Of a stretch of DNA of 64,000 nt, positions 676-64,000 are shown in pieces. Source of the DNA: Escherichia coli (lineage in GTDB: Bacteria > Pseudomonadota > Gammaproteobacteria > Enterobacterales > Enterobacteriaceae). Numbering within the stretch: the first letter of the stretch is position 1; every line of letters starts with the position of its first letter. The notes beneath the pieces were generated by a model. It saw only the letters and a list, made by a program, of their open reading frames with translations. It searched no databases and had not been told where the DNA came from. A program made the position numbers and the translations under genes. The stretch lies in the NCBI RefSeq assembly GCF_024502345.1, contig NZ_JALDNN010000001.1, one strand, 5' to 3'.

Positions 676-951
676 GTGGCTTCTGTTTCTATCAGCTGTC
701 CCTCCTGTTCAGCTACTGACGGGGTGGTGCGTAACGGCAAAAGCACCGCCGGACATCAGCGCTATCTCTGCTCTCACTGCCGTAAAACATGGCAACTGCA
801 GTTCACTTACACCGCTTCTCAACCCGGTACGCACCAGAAAATCATTGATATGGCCATGAATGGCGTTGGATGCCGGGCAACCGCCCGCATTATGGGCGTT
901 GGCCTCAACACGATTTTCCGCCATTTAAAAAACTCAGGCCGCAGTCGGTAA
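676..951 (+). CDS. insA: IS1 InsA (transposition repressor)
   Basis: 91-aa [46 protein letters not shown] matches recalled InsA. Confidence 0.9.
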
Positions 952-1373
952 CCTCGCGCATACAGCCGGGCAGTGACGTCATCGTCTGCGCGGAAATGGA
1001 CGAACAGTGGGGATACGTCGGGGCTAAATCGCGCCAGCGCTGGCTGTTTTACGCGTATGACAGGCTCCGGAAGACGGTTGTTGCGCACGTATTCGGTGAA
1101 CGCACTATGGCGACGCTGGGGCGTCTTATGAGCCTGCTGTCACCCTTTGACGTGGTGATATGGATGACGGATGGCTGGCCGCTGTATGAATCCCGCCTGA
1201 AGGGAAAGCTGCACGTAATCAGCAAGCGATATACGCAGCGAATTGAGCGGCATAACCTGAATCTGAGGCAGCACCTGGCACGGCTGGGACGGAAGTCGCT
1301 GTCGTTCTCAAAATCGGTGGAGCTGCATGACAAAGTCATCGGGCATTATCTGAACATAAAACACTATCAATAA
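870..1373 (+). CDS. insB: IS1 InsB reading frame (expressed as InsAB' transposase by -1 frameshift)
   Basis: ORF overlapping insA in the -1 frame, ends 15 bp before the IS1 terminus. Confidence 0.85.
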
Positions 1374-1451
1374 GTTGGAGTCATTACCTGTACTCCCGCA
1401 AAATAGGTGCAGTTTGGCGCGGTTAAGGAATAAAAAATAAAGGACTAAGCC

Positions 1452-2862
1452 ATGCGTAACGATGAACTTCTTCACCATTTTACTTTTACATTGCTTATGT
1501 TGGGTGGCTATCTACTGACTCTGTTCATCGTTATCGTCCTTTCCTTTTTTCGCCCACTATGCCGAAAAATGGTCTTCCATGGCATATTGCCACAATTGAT
1601 GATGTCGCTAATGGTGTCGCTCGGTTTATATTATCTGGAACGATACTCTATTGCGGTATGGGCCTTACTGGATTCTGTTTGGATATTATTCCCTTGCCTG
1701 TTATTGATCATAGTGATAAATAAATGGTCAAAACGTTCCCTTGTATGGATGAGTGCTTGTCATATTATGTGCTTGCTGTTGTTACTCTGGCAGGTGCAGC
1801 CCACGTTATTTAAAATCAGCTTTTATCACCAACAATTAAGTCACCTGGCTCAGGCAGAACAGGAAAATTTCCGCACACTGGATGCGATTCACGATACGCA
1901 ACGTCTGGAAGAGATGTTGCTGGTAGCGTTGAAATCCCCGGAAAATAAAACCTCTGAAAATGCCTTTCGCTATCTGTCAGGGCGAATCTCACCATTTGCT
2001 ATACCTTCCATTGGCGATCAAAAGTATTCTACCCGCACTTTTTTTACGATTGCGTTGGAACATTACAACGCCCGCGCCATCCGCGCGTTTAGCCGCTTTC
2101 TGCAAGGAAATTCCTCAAAAGCGCAGGAATATCGCGCGATTGTTCATCAAAACAATCCACTGCAGCAGATGTACCGGGGAATAAGTTTGCCAATTCGTTT
2201 TAGTGAAGAAGAGATCGCCCGCCACATTGTTGCCGCTCGCGAGATAAGCCTCACCTTACTGCCCCTGATGCCAGAATTATTAAGCGAAGAGGCGTATGCA
2301 AATGTCATTGATGCTTATGACAGCGCAACGCTGAAGGCTTTTTGGCAGATCCAGCTGCCCGCCCACGCCGGTTTTACGCCTGGAAGCGATGTCGGTAATT
2401 CCTATGACAGCGGCACTCGTTCAACAGGTGAGGGAGTCACCAAAGCGGCTTGAACTGAAAGATAAAAGTGGCAGGACAGTACTAACTTACATCGTGCGCT
2501 TTGGAAATATTGCCGCAGTACAGGCACTGATTGACGCTAATCTGATCGACTGGCAACGGCTTCGCCAATCGACAGAAAGGTCAACACCATTATTACTGGC
2601 CACCTGGCGACAAAAATACGACGATGATCATGTAATCTTCCCATTGATTTTAAAGGACATTCTGGCAAAAAATACACCACCGTCGGCAGAGGAAATAATG
2701 AACTGCATCAAGGATGGTATGACCGCAGATGATTTTTTATCTGCCGGAATGAGCAACACGCAATTCTGTTCTGCGATTGAACAAAGCCTCCAGGCGAAAA
2801 CGTCAGTATTACCGGCGAATCGATTACGCCATCTGCAATCCTCGCTGTGTGCAAAGCTGTAA
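1452..2862 (+). pseudogene. Uncharacterized polytopic membrane protein gene split by a frameshift near 2360-2375 (ORFs 1452..2453 and 2389..2862); N-terminal hydrophobic domain plus C-terminal soluble domain; paralog of the 13..642 gene
   Basis: Two overlapping ORFs in different frames; homology to the upstream paralog continues across the frame change (FWQIQLPAHAG / VLRLEAMSVIPMTAAL vs FWRKQPPENRLYRLKAMALIPQTDAL). Confidence 0.45.
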
Positions 2863-2977
2863 CCAACCGGGAGTTAAGTCATCCGCTGAAAACATCGCAT
2901 TAACTTTTCGATTTCTCTTTCGTTCCGGCTTATAATCCCCGGCCTTTGATTATTTTTTTATCATTTCTGGAAGCAAA

Positions 2978-5197
2978 ATGAGCTCTATCTCCCTGATCCA
3001 ACCGGATCGCGACCTGTTCTCCTGGCCGCAGTACTGGGCCGCCTGTTTTGGACCGGCACCGTTTTTGCCGATGTCTCGTGAAGAGATGGATCAACTTGGC
3101 TGGGATAGCTGCGACATCATTTTGGTTACTGGCGACGCGTATGTCGATCACCCAAGCTTCGGGATGGCGATTTGCGGTCGTATGCTGGAAGCGCAGGGCT
3201 TTCGCGTCGGGATCATCGCCCAGCCGGACTGGAGCAGCAAAGACGACTTTATGCGTCTGGGTAAACCGAATCTGTTTTTCGGTGTTACTGCTGGCAACAT
3301 GGATTCGATGATCAACCGTTATACCGCCGATCGCCGTTTACGTCATGACGATGCCTACACGCCGGATAACGTCGCGGGTAAGCGCCCGGATCGCGCCACA
3401 CTGGTTTATACCCAGCGTTGTAAAGAGGCGTGGAAAGATGTACCGGTGATCCTCGGCGGTATTGAGGCTAGTCTGCGCCGTACCGCACATTATGATTACT
3501 GGTCCGATACCGTGCGCCGTTCCGTGCTGGTGGATTCGAAAGCCGACATGCTGATGTTTGGTAACGGTGAGCGTCCGCTGGTGGAGGTGGCGCACCGTCT
3601 GGCGATGGGCGAGCCGATTAGTGAAATCCGCGATGTGCGTAATACCGCGATTATCGTGAAAGAGGCGCTGCCTGGCTGGAGCGGCGTGGATTCCACCCGT
3701 CTTGATACCCCTGGAAAAATCGACCCAATCCCGCATCCGTATGGTGAAGATTTGCCGTGCGCGGATAACAAACCGGTGGCACCGAAAAAGCAGGAAGCCA
3801 AAGCCGTAACCGTGCAGCCACCGCGCCCGAAACCGTGGGAAAAAACCTACGTGTTGCTGCCTTCTTTCGAGAAAGTGAAGGGCGATAAAGTGCTGTACGC
3901 CCATGCTTCGCGTATTCTGCACCACGAAACCAACCCAGGCTGTGCCCGCGCATTGATGCAAAAACACGGCGACCGCTATGTGTGGATCAACCCGCCTGCT
4001 ATTCCGCTTTCTACCGAAGAGATGGACAGCGTTTTTGCGCTGCCATACAAGCGCGTGCCACATCCGGCCTATGGCAATGCCCGTATTCCGGCTTACGAAA
4101 TGATCCGTTTTTCGGTCAACATTATGCGTGGCTGCTTTGGCGGCTGCTCTTTCTGTTCTATCACCGAGCACGAAGGGCGCATTATTCAGAGCCGTTCCGA
4201 AGATTCGATCATTAATGAGATCGAAGCGATCCGCGACACCGTTCCAGGTTTTACGGGCGTAATTTCCGATCTCGGTGGGCCAACTGCCAACATGTATATG
4301 TTGCGCTGCAAATCGCCACGCGCTGAACAAACTTGTCGCCGTTTGTCGTGCGTTTATCCGGATATTTGTCCGCACATGGACACTAACCACGAACCGACGA
4401 TCAACCTCTATCGCCGTGCGCGTGATCTGAAAGGCATTAAAAAAATCCTCATCGCCTCAGGCGTACGTTATGACATCGCCGTGGAAGATCCGCGCTATAT
4501 CAAAGAGTTGGCGACCCATCACGTCGGCGGTTATCTGAAGATTGCTCCGGAACATACCGAAGAAGGGCCGTTGTCGAAGATGATGAAGCCGGGCATGGGC
4601 AGCTATGACCGCTTTAAAGAGCTATTCGATACCTACTCGAAACAGGCAGGTAAAGAGCAGTATCTGATCCCGTATTTCATCTCTGCGCACCCCGGTACGC
4701 GTGATGAAGATATGGTGAATTTGGCGCTGTGGCTGAAAAAGCATCGTTTCCGTCTCGACCAGGTACAGAACTTCTACCCATCGCCGCTGGCGAACTCAAC
4801 CACCATGTATTACACCGGGAAAAACCCGCTGGCGAAGATTGGTTATAAGAGCGAAGACGTCTTCGTACCGAAGGGCGACAAGCAGCGTCGTTTGCATAAA
4901 GCGTTGTTGCGTTACCACGATCCGGCAAACTGGCCGTTAATCCGCCAGGCGCTGGAAGCGATGGGTAAAAAGCATCTGATTGGTAGCCGTCGCGATTGCT
5001 TAGTGCCTGCGCCAACCATTGAAGAGATGCGTGAAGCTCGTCGCCAGAACCGCAATACCCGTCCGGCGTTGACGAAACATACGCCGATGGCGACCCAGCG
5101 TCAGACGCCTGCTACGGCAAAAAAAGCGTCGTCTACGCAATCTCGTCCGGTGAATGCTGGTGCGAAGAAACGCCCTAAAGCGGCGGTTGGACGTTAA
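2978..5197 (+). CDS. ygiQ: Radical SAM protein YgiQ (UPF0313)
   Basis: 739-aa ORF with CxxxCxxC motif (CFGGCSFC); matches recalled K-12 YgiQ and gene order. Confidence 0.9.
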
Positions 5198-7603: not shown

Positions 7604-8767
7604 TTAGCGGGCGGCTTCGTATATACGGCGGCTGACATCCAGCGTAATGTCATGATTTTCGCCCAGTTGGGTCATGCCGTGCTCTTCCAGTTTTTTCAGC
7701 AAAGCCGGGATGGAGCTGCCGTCCAGACCGTAGTCGGAGAGGTGGGTAGGCACGCCTAATTGCTCAAAGAAATTGCGGGTTGCGGCAATCGCGGCGTCAA
7801 TACGCTCATCGTCGGAACCTTCAGTGATGTTCCAGACGCGTTCAGCATATTGCAGCAGCTTAGCGCGCTTGGTATCGCGTTTTTCATTCCACAGTGCAGG
7901 CAGGACGATAGCCAGTGTTTGCGCGTGATCCAGACCGTGCATCGCAGTCAGTTCGTGGCCCAGCATATGCGTTGCCCAGTCCTGCGGTACGCCAGCGCCA
8001 ATCAAACCGTTCAGCGCCTGAGTCGCCGCCCACATGACGTTGGCGCGCACATCGTAGTTTTCTGGCTCTTTCAGGGCTTTCGGACCATCTTCGATCAGCG
8101 TCAGCAAAATGCCTTCTGCGAAACGGTCCTGAATTTTGGCATCAACCGGTTTAGTAACATACTGTTCCACGGTGTGTACAAAAGCGTCCACTACACCGTT
8201 AGCCACCTGACGCGGCGGTAGGGTGTAGGTATAAACCGGATCGAGCACGGCAAATACCGGCTGAACATGGGCAGAATGGAACGCCTGCTTATCGCCTGTG
8301 GTTTTACGGGAGATCACCGCACCGGCGTTGGATTCTGAACCGGTTGCTGGCAGCGTCAGCACACAGCCCATCGGGATGGCGCTTTTAATCTCTTTACCGC
8401 CCGTTTGCAGAATGTGCCACGGATCGATATTTTCCGGATAGTTAGCCGCTGCGGCGATAAATTTGGTGCCGTCCAGTACAGAACCGCCGCCAACCGCCAG
8501 CAGGAAAGTCACTTTCTGTTCGCGAACCAGTTTCACGGCGTTCATCAGCGTTTCATAAGCCGGGTTTGGCTCAATACCGCCAAATTCCAGCACGTCCATG
8601 CCTTTCAGGGCATCCAGAACTTGATCGAGAACGCCGGTTTTTTTCACGCTGCCGCCACCGTAGGTAATCAATACGCGAGCATCGTGAGGAATTTGTTCGC
8701 GTAAACCAGCGATTGCGCCTTTACCAAACAGAATGCGGGTTGGGGTGTGCAGATTAAAGTTGTTCAT
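7604..8767 (-). CDS. yqhD: NADPH-dependent aldehyde reductase YqhD (Fe-type alcohol dehydrogenase)
   Basis: ORF containing [22 protein letters not shown]; start placed at MNNF to give 387 aa. Confidence 0.9.
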
Positions 8768-49680: not shown

Positions 49681-50034
49681 TAGCGTCAAAAAAGCCCCGG
49701 CAAGTTTTATTGTCGGGGCTATGATAGTAACTGCGGTAGTACATTTATCCCGGAAATAACCGGAGCGATTATCAGGGTTTAACAATATTAAATACCCGTA
49801 GCGCATTACTAGCGGGCCTAAAACAACAATATGGACATCTTAACGATACTCTGCGCCTGCGTGTGCGGAACAGAAACCCTTACCCGATATACTTGTTATG
49901 CCAGAGGTAGCAATTGCGTTAGCGGCGTACTGTTGCTGTAAAGTATAACGCCTATATTTTACAGTTCAGTCCTCTTTTGCTTATTACAACCTTAAGTATA
50001 TCAAGCATATAAAGATAATAAGAGACTGAACAAT

Positions 50035-52202: not shown

Positions 52203-53300
<1,098 letters not shown>

Positions 53301-53399
53301 TATTACTGTCGCCTGTAAATAACCGGCACAGTGCGAACACCATGCCGGGAGATTATGGCTGACAAAACGGGAACGACAGGATCCCGCTGTTGTCGGGGG

Positions 53400-55082
53400 T
53401 CAGAAGGTTTCCCAGTTCTCGCTGGCGTGTTGTTCCGTTTCACGAACGGACTTTACCGCTTTAACCTTACTCTGCGGGCTGGTGTTGCTGATTGTCGGTA
53501 CTATGGTATTTTTTCGTTCAGCATCGCGTTTTTTATTATCACGGAGACGAAATACGCTCACCTTCTCCTGCAGAATCCGTGACTGATTCTGCAACGAAGC
53601 GGCAGTGGCTGCAGACTGTTCCACCAGAGCTGCATTTTGTTGGGTGGTGCTGTCTATCTGGCCCATGGCGCTGTTAATCTGGGCAATACCATCTCCCTGC
53701 TCACGACTGGCCTTGGCTATTTCGTCAATCAGCCCTTCCATGCTCTGGACGTTACTGATGATATCCTCCATTCCCCTGTCTGCTTTTTCAACCAGGGTAC
53801 GGCCGGATGCAATGCGGGAAACGGAGTCATCAATGAGCTCTTTTATTTCCCGCGCGGCAGAAGCACTGCGCTGAGCCAGATTACGAACCTCTCCGGCCAC
53901 AACCGCAAATCCACGGCCGGACTCGCCGGCGCGTGCGGCTTCCACGGCAGCATTAAGCGCGAGAATGTTGGTCTGGAAGGCAATCCCGTCGATGACCTGG
54001 ATGATGGCTGTCATTTCAGACGAGGTGTCGTAAATCTCCTGCATCCGGGAAGACACCTCACTCATGACCACTCCATTCTGTTTCACAATGGCCGTTGTTT
54101 CTGTCACAAACTGGTAAACCTGTGCTGTATTGCCGGCAGTATTGTTTATGGTGGCCGTCAGTTGTTCCAGAGTGGCCGCCGTCTGTTCCACACCGGCAGC
54201 CTGCTCTTCGGTGCGGGCTGACAGGTCTGTATTACCACTGCTGATTTCTGCTGCAGTCAGCGCAATATTGTCCGCTCCCTGACGTACTTCCCGGACGGTG
54301 TTACTCAGACTCCCGCACATATCACGCAGTGCCTGCATCAGTTGCCCCAGCTGGTCCTGTGAGTCCACTTTAATCTCCACACACAGGTTACCTTCCGCCA
54401 CTTCCCGGGCAATCCGGACGGCTGAAATCAACGGACTGGTAATGCTTCTGGTGATCAGCCATGCCAGCACACCTCCCAGAAGAAGCGCCATACACCCAGT
54501 GATGATCAGTGTCAGTATGGCTGCCGTACCATTATCAGCGATAACTTCACCCGCTTTATCTATGCTTGTTTTTTCGTATTCCACCAGTGCCTGCAGACTG
54601 GCCATGTAGTCATTTATGATCGGTAATTGCTGTGACTCAATGAAGTGGTTCAGGGCTTCACGGTCCCCCTGCTCACTGATCTGAAGAGCTTTTACCAGGG
54701 TATCTGCATACACCTGACGCTTTTCACCAATGGTTTTCAGCAGCTTAATACCCTGCTCTGAAGTAAGCTCCCTGTTAAATTTATCCTGCAGTATATCCAC
54801 GCGAGCACGGGTTTTCTCTATCCGCTGCTGTGCATATGTCCTGATATCCGGGTCCCCCGACGTCAGCAGAACCAGTCCAAGCGCACCGTTTGATTCAATA
54901 CCGGTCTGCCATTCATTCGCCATACGCTCCTGCAGAAGATAATTATTCATCACGCGATCGGTGGAAGTGAGCATAGAGTTCAGGTACCCCACTCCGGTCA
55001 CTGTCATGATCATGATAAGAACCAGAATTAGGCTGAAGCTGCCAGCCAGCCTGATACCCACACTAAAGTCTTTGATTTTCAT
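53400..55082 (-). CDS. Methyl-accepting chemotaxis protein (orphan, island-borne)
   Basis: 560-aa ORF: TM1, periplasmic domain, TM2, HAMP, conserved MCP signalling region ([51 protein letters not shown]). Confidence 0.85.
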   Translation of the reverse strand: [560 protein letters not shown]

Positions 55083-55380
55083 TTTATTACCCGTGAATGA
55101 AGCTGGTTATTTCGGACCCCGGTGTCCCTGACAAATAACTGGTGCCTCCAGACTTATTTATGAGGAATCATATTTTGATTAACGAGATCTGTTATCGGTA
55201 TCAGTGTGCCTGAATGGAGTATGTCAGACACGACCACTTAATACCCCGAAGCGTCCTGCCAAAAAAGACCAGACGGTGAGGGCTGGTCTGAAATCTGACA
55301 ATGTCTATGGGGTCTACCGTTGCGTAGAGGGCTGTCACAACGTTAATAAGATTATCGGCAACAGTCCGGTAAACTTTAAC

Positions 55381-56030
55381 GGCACTGTTGCAAATAGTCG
55401 GTGGTGATAAACTTATCATCCCCTTTTGCTGATGGAGCTGCACATGAACCCATTCAAAGGCCGGCATTTTCAGCGTGACATCATTCTGTGGGCCGTACGC
55501 TGGTACTGCAAATACGGCATCAGTTACCGTGAGCTGCAGGAGATGCTGGCTGAACGCGGAGTGAATGTCGATCACTCCACGATTTACCGCTGGGTTCAGC
55601 GTTATGCGCCTGAAATGGAAAAACGGCTGCGCTGGTACTGGCGTAACCCTTCCGATCTTTGCCCGTGGCACATGGATGAAACCTACGTGAAGGTCAATGG
55701 CCGCTGGGCGTATCTGTACCGGGCCGTCGACAGCCGGGGCCGCACTGTCGATTTTTATCTCTCCTCCCGTCGTAACAGCAAAGCTGCATACCGGTTTCTG
55801 GGTAAAATCCTCAACAACGTGAAGAAGTGGCAGATCCCGCGATTCATCAACACGGATAAAGCGCCCGCCTATGGTCGCGCGCTTGCTCTGCTCAAACGCG
55901 AAGGCCGGTGCCCGTCTGACGTTGAACACCGACAGATTAAGTACCGGAACAACGTGATTGAATGCGATCATGGCAAACTGAAACGGATAATCGGCGCCAC
56001 GCTGGGATTTAAATCCATGAAGACGGCTTA
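55381..56030 (+). mobile_element. IS26: IS26 (IS6 family), 3'-truncated: left inverted repeat GGCACTGTTGCAAA and 196 of 234 transposase codons (tnp 55444..56031)
   Basis: Match to recalled IS26 terminus and transposase MNPFKGRHFQRDIILWAVRWYCKYGISYREL...; identity ends at GACGGCTTA. Confidence 0.88.
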
Positions 56031-56513
56031 ACGGACATAACCTACATCAGGACCCACGAAGGCTGGCTGTATCTTGCCGTGGTGGTTGATCTGTTCTCAC
56101 GCAAAATTATCGGCTGGTCCATGCAATCCCGGATGACAAAGGACATTGTCCTGAACGCACTGCTGATGGCCGTATGGCGGCGTAATCCCCAAAAACAGGT
56201 GCTGGTTCATTCGGATCAGGGCAGTCAGTACACAAGCCATGAGTGGCAGTCGTTCCTGAAATCACACGGCCTGGAGGGCAGCATGAGCCGTCGCGGTAAT
56301 TGCCATGATAATGTGGTTGCAGAAAGCTTTTTCCAGTTGTTGAAACGCGAACGGATAAAGAAAAAGATCTACGGAACGCGGGAAGAAGCCCGCAGCGATA
56401 TTTTTGATTACATCGAAATGTTTTATAACAGTAAGCGTCGGCATGGTTCCAGCGATCAGATGTCACCGACAGAATATGAAAACCAGTATTATCAACGGCT
56501 CGGAAGTGTCTAG
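56031..56513 (+). mobile_element. 3' fragment of an IS3-family orfB (DDE transposase C-terminus), abutting the truncated IS26
   Basis: Frame encodes DITYIRTHEGWLYLAVVVDLFSRKIIGWSMQSRM...HSDQGSQYTS...MSPTEYENQYYQRLGSV. Confidence 0.8.
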
Positions 56514-56546
56514 ATTATCTGTGGCGATTCATATCTTGGAATATAA

Positions 56547-56985
56547 ATGTTAAAAAAATTAATAACTTTTTCTGCCATCCTGTGTACGGGACAAGCATGG
56601 GCTGCATGTGTGGATGGTGCAGCTGGCCCAAACGGCGTAGATAGTGCCACCGAAGGTAGTACCTGCGATAACAGCGGTACGTCATATATAGGGAATAATA
56701 CCGCTTATGCGAGCGGGTCAGGTTCTGTTCTTAATTTCTTACCTGGAACTGTAATCAGTAGTAATGGTGTTGCTGCCGTTTATACGCTTGCCGTGGGAGG
56801 AGTCAATAGTGGCGGTTCGATCCCTGGAGCTGGAGCAACGGTTCATGCAAAAGGAGATTTAACAGTTAATGGGAATGCTCTGGGCAGTACTCGGAGTATT
56901 TTTATCTTTTCTGGTACAGATGCAGGGGGAAAACGTAACTCACTTCAGATAGATGGAAACCTGACTGCAACGAGGACTGGCGGTC
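56547..56985 (+). pseudogene. 5' fragment of a secreted Gly/Ser/Thr-rich protein gene (possible adhesin/autotransporter passenger), 3'-truncated at the junction with the integrase fragment
   Basis: Signal peptide MLKKLITFSAILCTGQAWA then low-complexity passenger-like sequence; the ORF's last codons are antisense integrase sequence. Confidence 0.4.
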
Positions 56986-57548
56986 TTTATGGGGCTGTTA
57001 TAGGTGATAATGCCTGACTGGGCAGCATAGCGCATGATTGCAGTGATACGCTGCTGAAGGCGCGCTGCAATCTCATAAATCTCTTTGGCTTCGGCTGCCT
57101 TTACTGGAACAAGTAAATCGGGAGTTCTGAGGGTGGTAATGTCACGTGAACCGATAAAGGGAAACACATGAGTTTCTAGGCTTTTCAGTATCTTCTCACT
57201 ATGTGAGGCTGACCATTTTTTGTTGCTCTTATGCCACTGCCTTGCGATGCCTTCAAATGTCTGAGCTGTTTCGGGTACCGACTTTTTGATTCGTTTCTGT
57301 TCGCACGGGTCAGTTCCTTCAGCTATCTGCTTTCTCGCCGCATCGCGTTTTTCCCTTGCTTCTGATAACGAGACTTCAGGATAGACACCCAGGGCGAGCG
57401 TTTTCTCTTTGCCCAGAAACCGGTAGCGGAGTCGCCAGTAGCGCGAGCCGTTAGGGTGAACGAGCAAAAACATGTTGCCGCTGTCGGCAAGTTTATAAGG
57501 TTTTTCATCCGGTTTAGCTGCACGGATTTTAGCGTCAGTGAGCGCCAT
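56980..57548 (-). pseudogene. P4-type phage/island integrase, N-terminal ~190 codons only
   Basis: MALTDAKIRAAKPDEKPYKLADSGNMFLLVHPNGSRYWRLRYRFLGKEKTLALGVYPEVSL matches recalled CP4-like integrase arm-binding domain; catalytic domain absent; sits 195 bp downstream of the tRNA-Phe fragment. Confidence 0.75.
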
Positions 57549-57743
57549 TGGCGGTATCTCCTGATAGTAAAAGGGGCATAAATTTTATCGAATCAGACTA
57601 TACCCTCAGTTGTACCCTCGCAAGGGGCTTGATGCGGGTAGAAGTTGATTGAGCTGGGTGGAGTTAATGGATTGAAGAGGTGTTGATTTCTGCGGGATTA
57701 GAATGCAAAAACGGACCTCCGTGGAGGTCCGTTGATATGAATT

Positions 57744-57792
57744 TGGTGCCCGGACTCGGAATCGAACCAAGGACACGGGGATTTTCAATCCC
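57744..57792 (-). tRNA. tRNA-Phe 3'-terminal 49-nt fragment (not a complete gene): direct-repeat remnant of a tRNA-Phe attachment site
   Basis: Exact match to reverse complement of recalled tRNA-Phe 3' half TGGTGCCCGGACTCGGAATCGAACCAAGGACACGGGGATTTTCAATCCC; match ends abruptly. Confidence 0.8.
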
Positions 57793-58069
57793 TTTAAAAG
57801 AGCCCAAACGATCCATCAGCACTAACAGTTTTTTACTGGTTTACCTTGAGAAAAATGTTTAAGTTTGGTTCTTCATGACTTAAGTATTGCTTAAATACGG
57901 CGTTTCGAAGCTACCAGAATCCTACCATTATGAGCCTATACCCATAGAAGAGAAATTATCTCCCGTTCTCGCGATTCAATGACTAAAAATCAGACGGTGC
58001 AGGCTTTTAGATACTGATATTATATCTTTTGGGTAAAGTATTAATCTCTGTTGAGATAGGCTCTTAGCC

Positions 58070-58408
58070 CTAAAATAGCCGAGCAGCAAACGCCAAAACA
58101 ACAATACTAACATTACCATTAACTGTCGCGATGGTTCTGAGTCGATCGTCTTTAAGTGTTTTACCATCAAATGTTGCGATGGTGCGGAGTCGATCGTCTT
58201 TCAGGGTCTTGCCATCAAAGGTAGCGATGGTGCGGAGTCGGTCGTCTTTCAGGGTTTTACCGTCAAAAGTTGAGATGGTTCTGAGCCGGTCGTCTTTCAG
58301 GGTTTTACCGTCAAACGTTGCGATGGTCCTGAGCCGGTCGTCTTTCAGGGTTTTACCGTCAAAGGTAGCGATGGTACGGAGTCGATCGTCTTTTATAGTT
58401 ACGCTCAT
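58070..58408 (-). CDS. Small repeat protein: MSVTI, about 5.5 copies of a 16-aa unit (KDDRLRTIATFDGKTL), hydrophobic C-terminal tail
   Basis: ORF with AGGAGA RBS 6 nt before ATG at 58408; repeat units differ mainly by synonymous codon changes (Arg CGC/AGA/AGG/CGT; Asp GAC/GAT). Confidence 0.55.
   Translation of the reverse strand: MSVTIKDDRLRTIATFDGKTLKDDRLRTIATFDGKTLKDDRLRTISTFDGKTLKDDRLRTIATFDGKTLKDDRLRTIATFDGKTLKDDRLRTIATVNGNVSIVVLAFAARLF
58131..58400. repeat. 48-bp tandem direct repeat array, about 5.6 copies
   Basis: Units ATGGT(G/T)C(G/T)GAG(T/C)CG(A/G)TCGTCTTTCAGGG(T/C)TTTACC(A/G)TCAAA(G/C)GT(A/T)GCG read directly. Confidence 0.85.
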
Positions 58409-58629
58409 AAGCATTCTCCTGTGATACGTCCGTTCAGCACTTTACCATCCAAAATCAAGCACTGGTTTCTGTGAGTTCTGGACGCTAATTGTCTGAATCA
58501 GCGATTAAAACTCATCCAGTTAGCATTAACATTAACCAGCGCCTCATCGATCATAACAGGTCTGATGCAGGTTAAAAGATACAATCTTACCCATAAATTG
58601 CGGTAGCGCATTGTTCTTTTATCTGACAT

Positions 58630-61600
58630 CTAGAGGTGTCCTCCAACCCCTTTAAATTTTTCGATAAATGCCCCAATTTTCTGGAATACAGTCTGCTTTT
58701 TCGTTTTGTACTGAGGATTCAGCGGACTGAGCTTTGGTAGCGTCTCATTTAGCTCCGTCCCATTTTCGGTGGCATACTCCCGTTTTAGTGATGTGCGGAT
58801 ATAGCGCCTTGCAGCCTCTTCATTGAGGTTTTCTTCCTTAATCAACGCCTCTGCTTCCCGTTGCTGTTCACGCTGAGCATAGGTAAAGAATGCATCAATG
58901 ATACTGGCCTTGTCCGGCATGTCATCAAGGTTAGTTTGCTGAATAAAGTCAACAATCAGACCTTCTTTGGCACGGTTGCCCAGACTTGAGCGGATTAAGC
59001 GTCTGACCTCTTCAGTCAGGGCTTCTTTACCTTTTTTCTGACGATTGTGGTCGAAAATCAGACCAAGGATGTAATCCAGGTTAATTTCCTGCGACTTCAG
59101 CAGGTCAATTTCAAACACCACGTCATCCCAGTCTGTGGTTGATTTATCCCTGTCGTTTGATGCTTTTTCGCGTCGCTGCCAGTCCCGGATATCATTGTAT
59201 GCTGAGCGATAGTCCTGAACTTTACGTTCTGCCGGGAGACGAATGGTTTGTAATTCAGCAAATTTTTCATCATCCACATAGTGCTCTGCTTTAAAGGTTT
59301 CTACCGCTTCCGGGTCACTAATATCAACCTTCTGCAGGGCTTTCAGCGTGGCAAATTCATCATAGTTTTGCAGGATGTTTTCTGCCCGCAGATATTCACC
59401 AAACAGTTTGACGAAGGCTTTTTTCTCTTTTTCACTGTCGATACTGGCAGGGTCAGGGAAGCGCTGCTCCAGCTCAGAGACAACAGCCATAAAACCTCGT
59501 TTAGCCTCACCGGTTGCCGCATCGGTAAAGCCCTGCATGTACTCTTCGTAGCTTTTTTCCAGCACCACATTCTTGGTGTTTTTGTCGCCGAAAAGTGTGA
59601 TGGCATCAATGGTCGGACGCTCCAGGTCCCTGAAAGTCACGATATTGCCGAAGGTTTTGGTTGCATCATAGATACGGTTGGTGCGTGAGAATGCCTGCAT
59701 CAGACCGTGATAACGCAGGTTTTTGTCAACGAACAGAGTATTGAGCGTCGGAGCATCAAAGCCAGTCAAGAACATTCCCACCACGATGAGAAGGTCAATA
59801 TCCTGATTTTTCACTCGTTGAGCTAAATCGCGGTAGTAGTTCTGGAAACCGTTACTGTCGGTGCTGAAATTGGTTTTAAAGTGGTTGTTATAGTCATCAA
59901 TGGCTGAATCCAGGAATTCCTTTGCGCTGCTGTTCATTGCACTGGTATCAAAACTTTCGTCGGTAATATCACCAATAGCGCTTTGCTCTTCATTAGCAGC
60001 AAAAGAGAAGATGGTTGCCACACGAAGACGTTTATAGCTGCCAGATTTCTTCTCAGCTTCTTCCTGTAGCATTTTAAATGTCGTGTAATAAGCTTTTGCC
60101 GCGTCCACGCTGCTCACTGCTAACATGGCATTGAAGCCTTTTGCTCCCGGGAAGGTACGATGCGTTTTCTGGCGGAAGTTATTGAGAATGTATTGCGTTA
60201 TTTCCTGGATACGCAGTGGGTGCAGAAAGGCCTGGTGGTTTTCAGCCGCGCTGAGTTTTTTCTCATCAGTTTCCGTTTCAAGAGACTTAAACTGTGGGCG
60301 GACATCGTTATAGTCCACCTTAAACTTCAGCACTTTTTCATCACGAATCGCATCAGTAATGACGTAAGAATGTAATTCACGCCCGAAGACGCTGGCGGTG
60401 GTTTCTGCCCCCAGTGCGTTTTCCGGGAAAATAGGTGTACCGGTAAAACCAAACTGATAAAAGCTTCTGAATTTCTTTTTGAGGTTTTTCTGGGCCTCAC
60501 CAAACTGGCTGCGGTGACACTCATCAAAGATAAACACAACCTGCTGCTGATAGACGGGCAGGTCAGCTTCGGCTTTCATCAGGTTATTGAGTTTCTGAAT
60601 GGTTGTGACGATAATTTTGTTATCGTCCTTATCCAGGTTTCTTCTGAGGCCAGCTGTATTATCCGAACCATTCACACTGTCCGGAGAGAAGCGCTGATAC
60701 TCCTTCATGGTCTGGTAATCGAGGTCTTTCCTGTCGACCACGAAGAAGACTTTATCAATAAAGTCCAGCTCGGTTGCCAGACGTGCGGCCTTAAAACTGG
60801 TCAACGTTTTACCGCTACCTGTGGTATGCCAGATAAACCCGCCGCTTTCGGGTTTTGACCAGTTCTTCGCTTTAAATGAGCTGTTAATTTTCCAGAGGAT
60901 TCGCTCAGTGGCAGCAATCTGATAGGGGCGCATGACGAGCAGCGTCTGGCTGCTGTCAAACACGCTGTAATTAAACAGAACATTCAGCAGAGTATGCTTC
61001 TGGAAGAAAGTGGCGGTAAAGTCCTTCAGGTCCTTAATCAGAGTGTTATCCGACTTTGCCCAGTTCATGGTGAAATCAAAGCTATTTTTATCCCGTTTAG
61101 TGGTACTGGCAAAGTACCGGGTATCAGTCCCGTTGGAAATCACGAAGAGTTGCAGGTATTTAAACAGGGAGTTATCGCTGTTAAAGCTTTCCTTGCTGTA
61201 ACGGTGTATCTGGTTAAAGGCTTCACGAATCGCCACACCGCGTTTTTTGAGTTCGATTTGCACCAGTGGAAGGCCGTTGACCAGAATGGTGACGTCATAA
61301 CGGTTAGCGTGTGAGCCAGTCTGCTCAAACTGCTGAATGACCTGCACCTTATTGCGCAGCAGGTTCTTTTTATCTATCAGATAGATGTTTTCCAGACGAC
61401 CATCATCAAACGTAAAATCACAGATATAGTCGATATGGATTTTACGGGTTTTGTCCAGGCTGCTGTCACTGGGACTGTCCAGATACTGCTCTGCGAAGCG
61501 CCGCCATTCACTTTCGTTAAACACCACACCATTAAGACGCTGAAGCTGGTCTCGCACATTCGCCAGCATCGCAGCCGGTGACTTAACGGAGATAAACTCA

Positions 61601-61746
61601 TACCCCTGATTAAGAAGGTCTTGAATCAGCTCCCGCTCAAGGTCCGATTCGCTCTGGTAACTCTCACCAGTTTCCTGAGCTTTAGAGTACTTATCAAGGA
61701 CGATAAAGTTATTGGATTCAGCAATAGTATGTGTCTGTTGTGTCAT
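58630..61746 (-). CDS. hsdR: Type I restriction enzyme R subunit (HsdR)
   Basis: 1038-aa ORF with helicase-type motifs (TGSGKT, DECHRSQ) and type I R subunit architecture. Confidence 0.9.
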
Positions 61747-61861
61747 GGTGCATCCTGTGCGTCATCTGGCAAAGTCCGGAAGGGTATCAGAAACATCATC
61801 CGGCACTCGTAAAGCCTGATACCGGTAGGTGAAAGCAGACACTGCCGGTATCAGTGGCCTG

Positions 61862-63087
<1,226 letters not shown>

Positions 63088-63091
<4 letters not shown>

Positions 63092-64000
63092 TTCTGCACC
63101 TCGCAGCCTTCAATTTCAGCCACAATCGCATCAATATCTTTGCGCAACTGGTCGATTTTGCTGACCGTGGTTTTCAGCTCTGCATTCAACTCAGCGATAT
63201 CGATAATTTCGCGAGTATCTTTCGCTTCCACATAGCTGCTCACCGACAGGTTATAGTCATTCGCGACAACAGTCTCAAACGCAACAGATTTCGCCAGATG
63301 AGCAACATCTTCCTTGCTGGCAAATACCTGCATAATTTGTTCGATATGGGCATCGGTCAGGATATTGTTGTTGGTCTCTTTTTTGAATAGTTCACTGGCG
63401 TCAATAAACTGAACTTTGGTATCGGTTTTATGTTTAGACAACACCAGAATATTGACGGCAATAGTGGTGCCAAAGAACAGGTTCGGTGCCAGTGAAATCA
63501 CGGTTTCGACATAGTTATTGTCAACCAGGTACTGTCGGATTTTCTGCTCTGCACCGCCACGGTAAAAAATACCGGGGAAGCAAACTATTGCTGCACGCCC
63601 TTTAGCAGACAGGTAGTTCAGCGCATGTAGGACAAATGCAAAGTCCGCTTTTGATTTCGGGGCCAGTACACCAGCTGGAGCAAAGCGCTCATCGTTAATC
63701 AGGGTCGGGTCGTCACTGCCAATCCACTTAACCGAGTACGGCGGGTTAGAGACAATCGCATCGAACGGTTTTTCATCGCCAAAGTGAGGCTCAGTCAGGG
63801 TATTCCCCAGTCTGATATCAAATTTGTCGTAGTTGATGTTGTGCAGGAACATGTTCATACGCGCCAGGTTAAAGGTTGTATGATTTATCTCCTGACCATA
63901 AAAACCTTCTTCAATGATATGGTTATCAAAGTGCTTCTTCGCCTGAAGCAGCAGTGAACCAGAGCCAGCGGCAGGGTCATAGATTTTGTTGACGTGAGTC
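63088..64000 (-). CDS. hsdM: Type I restriction-modification methyltransferase subunit (HsdM), C-terminal part; 5' end lies beyond the window
   Basis: ORF with N6-adenine methyltransferase motif IV (NPPY); frame open to the window edge; stop overlaps the hsdS start. Confidence 0.85.

What the first reader, a model, noticed from the sequence alone, without database searches (positions are those of the whole stretch)
56547..57792. Truncated P4-type integrase next to a 49-nt tRNA-Phe 3' fragment: an internal att repeat suggesting tandem islands
A perfect copy of the 3' 49 nt of tRNA-Phe lies at 57744-57792 on the minus strand, with an integrase N-terminal domain starting 195 bp downstream in the canonical tRNA-then-int arrangement. 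The tRNA copy lacks its 5' half, so it is an att direct repeat rather than the functional gene. The integrase lacks its catalytic domain and is fused at about 56980 to a fragment of a secreted protein gene. Inference: one island, carrying the type I R-M system, extends rightward toward the intact tRNA gene; a second, decayed island begins at this repeat and runs leftward into the sslE region.
Basis: partly seen in the sequence, partly recalled or inferred. Interest (0 to 1): 0.55.

Follow-up and report, generated by a model that had tools for sequence, protein, structure and literature searches.

The report
Stacked tRNA-Phe islands, one decayed
This is the seam between two mobile DNA islands stacked at the E. 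coli pheV tRNA gene: a 49-base leftover of the tRNA marks the end of a restriction/defence island, and next to it sits the broken integrase of an older, decayed island.

Summary
Bases 57744-57792 (-) are an exact copy of the last 49 nt of tRNA-Phe, and no tRNA gene is present. An integrase ORF starts 195 nt downstream. It keeps codons 1-184 of a 417-aa P4-type integrase (arm-binding and central domains) and has lost the catalytic domain.

The deletion junction lies at 56997-57001, a 5-nt GTTAT microhomology. It joins the integrase to codon 152 of a convergent signal-peptide gene.

Comparison with K-12 and with strains carrying only one of the two islands shows what the 49 nt are. They are the distal attachment repeat (attR) of a roughly 17-30 kb tRNA-Phe-specific island carrying the type I R-M system. 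The sequence after them is the tRNA-proximal flank of a classical intP4 GI-pheV island.

That older island is reduced here to a scrambled 5.2-kb remnant (52511-57743). It ends where sslE is cut to 103 codons, and it has lost its own repeat.

The intact pheV lies outside the window. Relatives with the same seam have it, with a second integrase, 17-30 kb to the right.

Tandem tDNA islands and decayed GI-pheV are well documented, so interest is low.

The parts
57744..57792 (-). Displaced 3' 49-nt fragment of tRNA-Phe. It is the identity block of attR of the hsd-carrying island ('island A'). The block starts at tRNA nt 28, in the 5' arm of the anticodon stem.
   Evidence: Exact 49/49 match to pheV. 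No tRNA called. The same 49-nt block ends every copy of island A examined (L001, L004, L007, L008, L009, L011, L012, L013, L020).
57793..64000 (-). Distal end of island A, which runs off the window. It contains the att arm (57793 to about 58069), a repeat-containing '5-fold beta-flower' gene (58070-58414), a 43-aa ORF, hsdR (58630-61746), hsdS (61862-63091) and the 3' part of hsdM (63088 to beyond 64000).
   Evidence: ORFs. PADLOC finds REase_I, Specificity_I and MTase_I. Pfam EcoR124_C is recorded on the identical HsdR. Homologous islands occur in ET220, EC596, 1916D18 and G3/10.
57549..57743 (-). tRNA-proximal flank (attL arm) of the older intP4 island ('island B'). It includes a pheV-type terminator hairpin at 57710-57733 and the region upstream of the integrase gene.
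   Evidence: 100% identical to the sequence that follows the intact pheV in ABWA45, G5, CX21 and others and in C 236-04A. Terminator-like hairpin found.
56997..57548 (-). Truncated P4-type integrase gene, codons 1-184 (arm-binding and central domains only). The ORF reads on to 56940.
   Evidence: NCBIfam PRK09692 matches only the N-terminal part of the profile.
56997..57001 (.). Deletion junction with the 5-nt microhomology GTTAT. About 5.7 kb is missing relative to strain C 236-04A: the rest of the signal-peptide gene, an IS3, an autotransporter barrel gene, an IS1 and the integrase catalytic half.
   Evidence: BLAST breakpoints and three-way alignment. The resulting chimeric 202-aa ORF occurs verbatim on 13 public contigs.
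56547..57001 (+). First 152 codons of a 392-aa protein with a signal-peptide-like N-terminus. It has no Pfam or NCBIfam family.
   Evidence: 152/152 identical to L003 28448-29626. No family found.
52511..56546 (.). Scrambled remainder of island B. It comprises an internal IS30 fragment (52507-52721), a segment inverted relative to C 236-04A (52719-56030) that carries isrC, a methyl-accepting chemotaxis protein gene (53400-55082, -) and 650 bp of IS26 (55381-56030), and an IS3-family transposase fragment (56029-56546).
   Evidence: BLAST map against C 236-04A and junction alignments. Annotation of L003. Rfam isrC match.
52203..52510 (+). sslE cut to its first 103 codons. This is the left limit of the island B remnant. 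The gsp type II secretion operon and island B's own attR are absent.
   Evidence: Translation gives [24 protein letters not shown].... Breakpoint. No second pheV 3'-end repeat, even with 3 mismatches.

Best explanation
The locus is the E. coli pheV integration hot spot carrying two integrative islands one behind the other.

Island B is a classical GI-pheV with a P4-type integrase. It was once directly next to pheV and has since decayed. A 5.7-kb microhomology deletion removed the catalytic half of its integrase. IS26, IS30 and IS3 activity scrambled its interior. A larger deletion removed its distal repeat together with the gsp operon and most of sslE. It can no longer move.

Island A is a different tRNA-Phe-specific element. 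Its own integrase is a 395-aa tyrosine recombinase only 23% identical to the island B integrase. Island A also carries a second recombinase, a DUF927 helicase and defence cargo, here a type I R-M system. Its attP carries a 49-nt copy of the tRNA 3' end.

Island A recombined with pheV. Integration regenerated an intact pheV at the far (right) end, from the chromosomal 5' part and the island's 49 nt. The original 3' 49 nt of pheV were displaced to the near end. There they now sit as attR between island A's arm and island B's integrase.

Shown: the sequence identities, the junctions and the att logic. Inferred: that the window's own genome has the intact pheV and the island A integrase 17-30 kb to the right; that island A arrived after island B; and that island A could still excise by attL x attR recombination.
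For: - Exact 49-nt fragment and no tRNA gene.
- The four-way att comparison covers the empty site, island A only, island B only and both islands.
- All ten island A copies examined (nine loci plus the window) end in the same 49-nt block. This holds whether native flank or island B flank follows.
- ET220 shows the complete arrangement: pheV, integrase A, about 30 kb, hsdMSR, the 49 nt, then a full-length island B-type integrase.
- 23 of 5426 complete E. coli genomes hold a seam of this type.
- Contig L011 matches the window at 99.89% over 7140 bp and includes the chimeric ORF. L017 matches L011 at 99.98% over 9 kb. L017 carries integrase A and a 472-aa gene.
- That 472-aa gene is followed by an intact tRNA-Phe in 8 of 8 long contigs read. 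Five are at pheV (yqgA side) and three at pheU (dsbD side).
- Integrase truncation and P4 relationship. Integrase A versus integrase B, 23% identity.
- The island B remnant was mapped against C 236-04A.
- The same dead island B junction is found behind three different upstream partners (L011, L013, L014). This argues that island B predates them.
- Literature: GI-pheV islands carry intP4 and have 19- or 23-bp repeats, and 34% lack attR and are shorter (PMC11537424). A regenerated tDNA plus a displaced fragment mark island ends. Tandem arrays and anticodon-centred attP sites are both common (PMC4383910).
Against: - The window ends inside hsdM, so its own intact pheV and integrase A are unseen.
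- No complete E. coli genome in the collection has this exact combination. The relatives with the seam are only 78-92% identical across it.
- No contig with a reconstructed attP junction was found in JGI metagenomes. There is therefore no direct evidence that island A is currently active.
- The structure alone does not fix the order of arrival. A P4-type integrase that crosses over in the last 19-23 nt could in principle have used the displaced fragment as its target.
Confidence: 0.9

Rival explanations
1. The components are the same but the order is reversed. Island A integrated first. Island B later integrated into the displaced 49-nt fragment, which still contains the 19-23-nt target used by P4-type integrases, and then decayed.
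For: The 49-nt fragment contains the whole 23-nt repeat reported for GI-pheV (PMC11537424). The final structure would be indistinguishable.
Against: The identical dead island B junction (the chimeric ORF) occurs behind three different upstream elements: the hsd island, a variant with ubiquitin-like/E1 cargo, and an island with a 19-nt block. A dead integrase cannot have inserted island B three times. The island B flank is 100% identical to that of strains where island B sits directly at the intact pheV.
Confidence: 0.07
2. The seam was not made in this lineage by site-specific integration. It was imported ready-made, or reshuffled, by homologous recombination with another strain or between the pheV and pheU loci.
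For: The same type of seam exists at pheU (S1-CAM-01-C next to cadC). The two sides of the seam have their best matches in different strains. Nhu et al. document frequent recombination of GI-pheV modules (PMC11537424).
Against: This does not change what the repeat is. The seam must still have been created once by integration of island A into a tRNA-Phe gene followed by a B-type island. The precise 49-nt boundary is kept in every copy.
Confidence: 0.2
3. The fragment is what remains of a pheV gene whose 5' half was destroyed by a deletion or an IS event, and no second island was integrated.
For: The neighbourhood is full of IS fragments and deletions.
Against: The breakpoint is identical to the nucleotide in ten copies (nine loci plus the window). 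These include strains where native K-12 flank follows the fragment and an intact pheV lies 21-30 kb away. No IS end abuts the fragment.
Confidence: 0.02

Closest known systems
GI-pheV islands of E. coli with the intP4 integrase (Nhu et al. 2024, PMC11537424)
   Same: Island B sits directly 3' of the pheV sequence and opens with a P4-type integrase (55.6% identical to P4 Int). It carries the typical modular, IS-ridden cargo. Like a third of described GI-pheV islands, it has lost its attR through deletion.
   Different: Here the integrase itself is cut at codon 184. The island is reduced to about 5 kb. It is no longer adjacent to the functional pheV, because another island has been inserted in between.
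Tandem arrays of tDNA-integrated islands, as mapped by Islander/TIGER (Hudson, Lau and Williams 2015, PMC4383910)
   Same: A regenerated tRNA gene at one end, a displaced 3' fragment in the same orientation at the other, and a further island behind the fragment. The 49-nt block starts in the anticodon stem, as in the 'anticodon-centred attP' class, which accounts for about half of Islander islands.
   Different: The second member lacks both a working integrase and its own fragment. A strict Islander-style call would therefore report one island plus a remnant.
Defence islands on mobile elements at E. coli tRNA hot spots (Hochhauser et al. 2023, PMC10121019)
   Same: Island A carries a complete type I R-M system. 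In relatives it also carries genes that match PADLOC models HEC-05 (strongly) and HEC-07 (weakly). A sister copy carries ubiquitin-like/E1 cargo in the same slot.
   Different: I did not find island A named as a family in the papers I could read. Its recombination module (395-aa integrase, second recombinase, DUF927 helicase) is not a P4-like satellite and not a GMT element; the NCBIfam GmtY match is far below cut-off.
EcoR124-family (type IC) restriction-modification systems
   Same: HsdR carries the EcoR124_C domain. HsdS has the central TAEL repeat, here three copies.
   Different: The target-recognition domains differ from those of the relatives (hsdS aligns only in patches), so the specificity is unknown.

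Membership tests
P4-type tyrosine integrase (intP4) | N-terminal arm-type DNA-binding domain (Pfam Arm-DNA-bind_3 / DUF4102) | tested here: met
   PF13356 at aa 3-86, E = 8.5e-29.
P4-type tyrosine integrase (intP4) | Central core-binding domain (Phage_int_M) | tested here: met
   PF22022 at aa 98-187, E = 3.1e-24.
P4-type tyrosine integrase (intP4) | C-terminal catalytic domain (PF00589) | tested here: not met
   Absent from the window copy. Present at aa 207-382 of the full-length allele that is 100% identical over aa 1-184. The window gene is therefore a pseudogene of this family.
P4-type tyrosine integrase (intP4) | Full-length sequence similarity to the phage P4 integrase | tested here: met
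   The full-length allele is 55.6% identical over 98% of its length, E = 1e-148.
tDNA-integrated genomic island (island A) | Displaced 3' tDNA fragment at the distal end, in the orientation of the tRNA gene | tested here: met
   49-nt exact fragment. It has the same orientation as the intact pheV in relatives.
tDNA-integrated genomic island (island A) | Regenerated intact tRNA gene and an integrase gene at the proximal end | not testable with these tools
   These lie beyond the window's end. They are present in ET220 and EC596. The 472-aa gene that L017 carries next to integrase A is followed by an intact tRNA-Phe in 8 of 8 long contigs read.
tDNA-integrated genomic island (island A) | Empty site in other strains with an uninterrupted flank | tested here: met
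   K-12 pheV followed by native flank. The same flank follows the 49-nt fragment in 1916D18 and EC596.
Strict tandem array (each member with its own fragment and integrase) | The second island has its own displaced tDNA fragment | tested here: not met
   No other copy of the pheV 3' end in the window: none of 14 nt or more matched exactly, and none of 23 nt with up to 3 mismatches.
Strict tandem array (each member with its own fragment and integrase) | The second island has an intact integrase | tested here: not met
   Truncated at codon 184. It is intact in the homologous arrays of ET220 and G3/10.
Anticodon-centred attP class (Williams / Islander class A) | The identity block runs from the anticodon stem-loop to the 3' end of the tRNA | tested here: met
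   The block starts at tRNA nt 28 in the 5' anticodon-stem arm and ends at CCA. The actual crossover point was not determined.
Type I R-M system, EcoR124 (IC) family | HsdR, HsdS and HsdM genes together, and the EcoR124_C domain on HsdR | tested here: met
   PADLOC REase_I (1564 bits), Specificity_I and MTase_I. PF12008 on the identical 1038-aa product. hsdM is cut by the window end.
Gamma-Mobile-Trio element (considered for island A) | GmtY, GmtZ and GmtX equivalogs | tested here: not met
   GmtY scores 19.7 bits against a cut-off of 340. There is no match for the two neighbouring genes.

The most novel reading that the evidence does not exclude
Island A may be an as yet unnamed, still active family of tRNA-Phe-specific elements. 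Its recombination and replication module is a 395-aa integrase, a second recombinase and a DUF927 (Cch-like) helicase. Its cargo slot next to attR swaps defence systems: type I R-M plus a GmrSD-like gene in some copies, a ubiquitin-like/E1 system in another. It may repeatedly cap the same dead GI-pheV remnant. Finding one dead junction behind three different partners would then record rapid turnover at a single site within one E. coli lineage.
Probability: 0.25. Interest if true: 0.35.

Novelty: already known. Interest (0 to 1): 0.15.

Why it matters
The main value is for annotation.
- It fixes the boundary between two islands to the nucleotide.
- It marks the integrase as a pseudogene.
- It shows that the left-hand remnant is frozen in the chromosome, while the right-hand R-M/defence island still has both att sites in relatives and may be excisable.
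- It explains why this strain lacks the SslE/type II secretion locus.

It does not open a new question. Stacking of islands at tRNA genes, decay of GI-pheV and loss of attR are all documented.

Tried and rejected
- No source genome found: I searched the 5426 complete E. coli genomes for the exact arrangement. None covers 80% or more of 55000-59000 or of 40000-64000, so the right flank had to be inferred from relatives and from chained short contigs.
- No attP junction found: I searched JGI metagenome contigs for a reconstructed island A attP junction (arm + 49 nt + proximal arm) as a sign of excised circles or A-A tandems. There were 0 hits.
- Island A is not a Gamma-Mobile-Trio element.
- The signal-peptide protein has no family in NCBIfam or Pfam. 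It may be the passenger part of an IS3-split autotransporter. That is only an inference from the gene order in C 236-04A.
- Williams 2002 on att sublocations is not held in the library. That point rests on the Islander paper (PMC4383910) and on my own knowledge.
- Scanning one genome per species for the exact island A attR found only Kluyvera intermedia and Pseudocitrobacter vendiensis. This is too few to describe a host range.

Full report
**Where the window comes from.** The backbone is the E. coli chromosome around pheV, in the order metC, exbBD, hyb operon, gss, pitB, the yghQ-T region and glcDEFGBA. It matches many complete genomes at about 99%. In relatives the gene order continues to the right with pheV, yqgA and speC. 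No complete genome in the collection contains the exact arrangement at 55000-64000.

**The observation.**
- Bases 57744-57792 on the minus strand are identical to the last 49 nt of the 76-nt pheV/pheU gene, and the identity ends there.
- ARAGORN calls no tRNA anywhere in the window.
- The 23-nt 3' end occurs once even with three mismatches allowed, against 0 expected.
- The ORF 56940-57548 (-) starts 195 nt downstream of the fragment.
- Its first 184 residues are identical to a 417-aa integrase of strain C 236-04A.
- It carries Arm-DNA-bind_3 and Phage_int_M and lacks the catalytic PF00589 domain.
- The full-length allele is 55.6% identical to the phage P4 integrase over 98% of its length.

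Two details need correcting. The breakpoint is at 56997-57001, where a 5-nt GTTAT is shared by both parents. The partner gene is convergent, so this is a deletion junction rather than a fusion protein. That partner is the first 152 codons of a 392-aa protein with a signal-peptide-like start and no recognisable family. Relative to C 236-04A, 5.7 kb is missing.

**What the 49 nt are.** The decisive result is the att comparison.

| Strain(s) | Sequence before the tRNA part | tRNA part | Sequence after |
|---|---|---|---|
| K-12 (no island) | chromosomal | full pheV | native flank CTAATTCTTAAGAACCCGCCC... |
| 1916D18, EC596 (hsd island only) | island arm ...GGGCTCTTTTAAA | 49 nt | the same native flank |
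| C 236-04A, 1368KP (intP4 island only) | chromosomal | full pheV | AATTCATATCAACGGACCTCC..., then the integrase |
| Window | hsd-island arm | 49 nt | AATTCATATCAACGGACCTCC... |

In 1916D18 and EC596 an intact pheV lies at the far end of the island, followed by an island-specific flank, ATATTCATA.... The window's arrangement is what results when an element whose attP carries a 49-nt copy of the tRNA 3' end integrates into a pheV gene that already has an intP4 island behind it.

The same 49-nt block closes every copy of this island I examined, nine loci besides the window. The block begins in the 5' arm of the anticodon stem. This is the 'anticodon-centred' att class that Islander reports for about half of tDNA islands (PMC4383910). 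The intP4 islands use 19- or 23-bp repeats instead (PMC11537424). This fits the finding that the hsd island's own integrase is only 23% identical to the intP4-type one.

**The far end of the hsd island.** It lies outside the window, so it can only be inferred.
- In ET220 the whole array is visible: pheV, a 195-aa gene, a 395-aa integrase, about 30 kb, hsdMSR, the 49 nt, then a full-length P4-type integrase.
- In all, 23 of 5426 complete genomes hold a seam of this type, at 78-92% identity.
- The chimeric 202-aa ORF created by the deletion is on 13 public contigs.
- One of them, L011, matches the window at 99.89% over 7.1 kb.
- L011 matches L017 at 99.98% over 9 kb. L017 extends to the 395-aa integrase and a 472-aa gene.
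- That 472-aa gene is followed, 596 bp on, by an intact tRNA-Phe in all eight long contigs read. Five are at pheV and three at pheU.

If the window carries the L017 variant, the island is about 17.3 kb long and the intact pheV lies about 11 kb beyond base 64000. This figure is my own arithmetic.

**The older island.** To the left, the intP4 island survives only as 52511-57743. It is a patchwork relative to C 236-04A:
- an IS3-family fragment;
- 650 bp of IS26;
- an inverted block with a chemotaxis-receptor gene and the isrC sRNA;
- a 215-bp internal piece of IS30.

It ends at an sslE gene cut to 103 codons. The gsp secretion operon and the island's own distal repeat are gone. This matches the published finding that a third of GI-pheV islands lack attR and are shorter (PMC11537424).

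**Order of events.** The structure alone would also fit arrival of the intP4 island second. However, the identical dead junction is found behind three different upstream elements:
- the hsd island;
- a sister island with ubiquitin-like/E1 cargo and the same 49-nt block (L013);
- an element with only a 19-nt block (L014).

A dead integrase cannot have inserted three times. The remnant is therefore older, and the position next to pheV has turned over since, by integration or by recombination.

**Activity and verdict.** I found no contig with a reconstructed attP junction, so current activity of the hsd island is unproven.

The phenomenon itself is textbook: a displaced tDNA fragment marks an island end, islands stack at tRNA-Phe, and GI-pheV decays (PMC4383910, PMC11537424, PMC10121019, PMC7545054). 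Interest is low. The only mildly open point is that the hsd-carrying element seems not to have a name as a family.

Noticed in passing
L013 (ENA ERZ19692831) 716-4400; L014 (GCA_050022275.1) about 480-520: The same dead integrase junction as in the window is preceded in other samples by different elements. One is a sister island ending in the same 49-nt block, with Multi_ubiq, ThiF/E1-like and BubE genes plus an M78 peptidase/HTH pair in place of the R-M system. The other is an element that leaves only a 19-nt tRNA-Phe repeat.
   Followed up: partly
window 62512-62551 (hsdS, - strand): A perfect 12-bp x 3.3 tandem repeat encodes TAEL x 3 in the central region of HsdS. From memory, not tested here: in EcoR124-family enzymes the copy number of this repeat sets the spacer length of the recognition sequence.
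   Followed up: partly
window 58113-58393 (gene 58070-58414, - strand): A 48-bp unit repeated 5.9 times (87% matches) makes up most of a small gene between attR and hsdR. The gene is annotated elsewhere as '5-fold beta-flower protein'. It encodes a repeated ...DDRLRTIATFDGKTLK... unit and has no NCBIfam or PADLOC family.
   Followed up: partly
window 52808-52930 (- strand): A full-length Rfam match to the Hfq-binding sRNA isrC (140 bits) lies inside the scrambled island B remnant. In C 236-04A the equivalent stretch is annotated as a partial transposase.
   Followed up: no
window 52203-52721: sslE is cut after codon 103 and joined to a 215-bp internal fragment of IS30. The whole gspC-M type II secretion operon that normally lies between sslE and pheV is missing from this strain.
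   Followed up: partly
L030 4468-11419; L017 132-5579; L011 630-2495: Outside the window, the hsd island's backbone includes a second tyrosine recombinase, a DUF927 protein with weak similarity to the SCC cassette helicase Cch1, and a 116-aa gene. These three form a same-strand trio. The backbone also has a GmrSD-like gene matching PADLOC HEC-05 (763 bits) and a 472-aa gene weakly matching HEC-07. L017 is an internally deleted variant.
   Followed up: partly
L007 (S1-CAM-01-C) 7681-8284: At pheU, next to cadC, the same 49-nt block is followed by a 160-bp integrase remnant. This is a further-decayed version of the same stacked arrangement at the second tRNA-Phe gene.
   Followed up: no
L032 (Kluyvera intermedia), L033 (Pseudocitrobacter vendiensis): The exact island A attR (CTTTTAAA + 49 nt) also occurs in the species-representative genomes of two other enterobacterial genera. 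The element is therefore not confined to E. coli.
   Followed up: no
window 49735-49956 (- strand): The C0719 sRNA (299 bits) lies between glcB and glcA, as in K-12. It is ordinary backbone.
   Followed up: no
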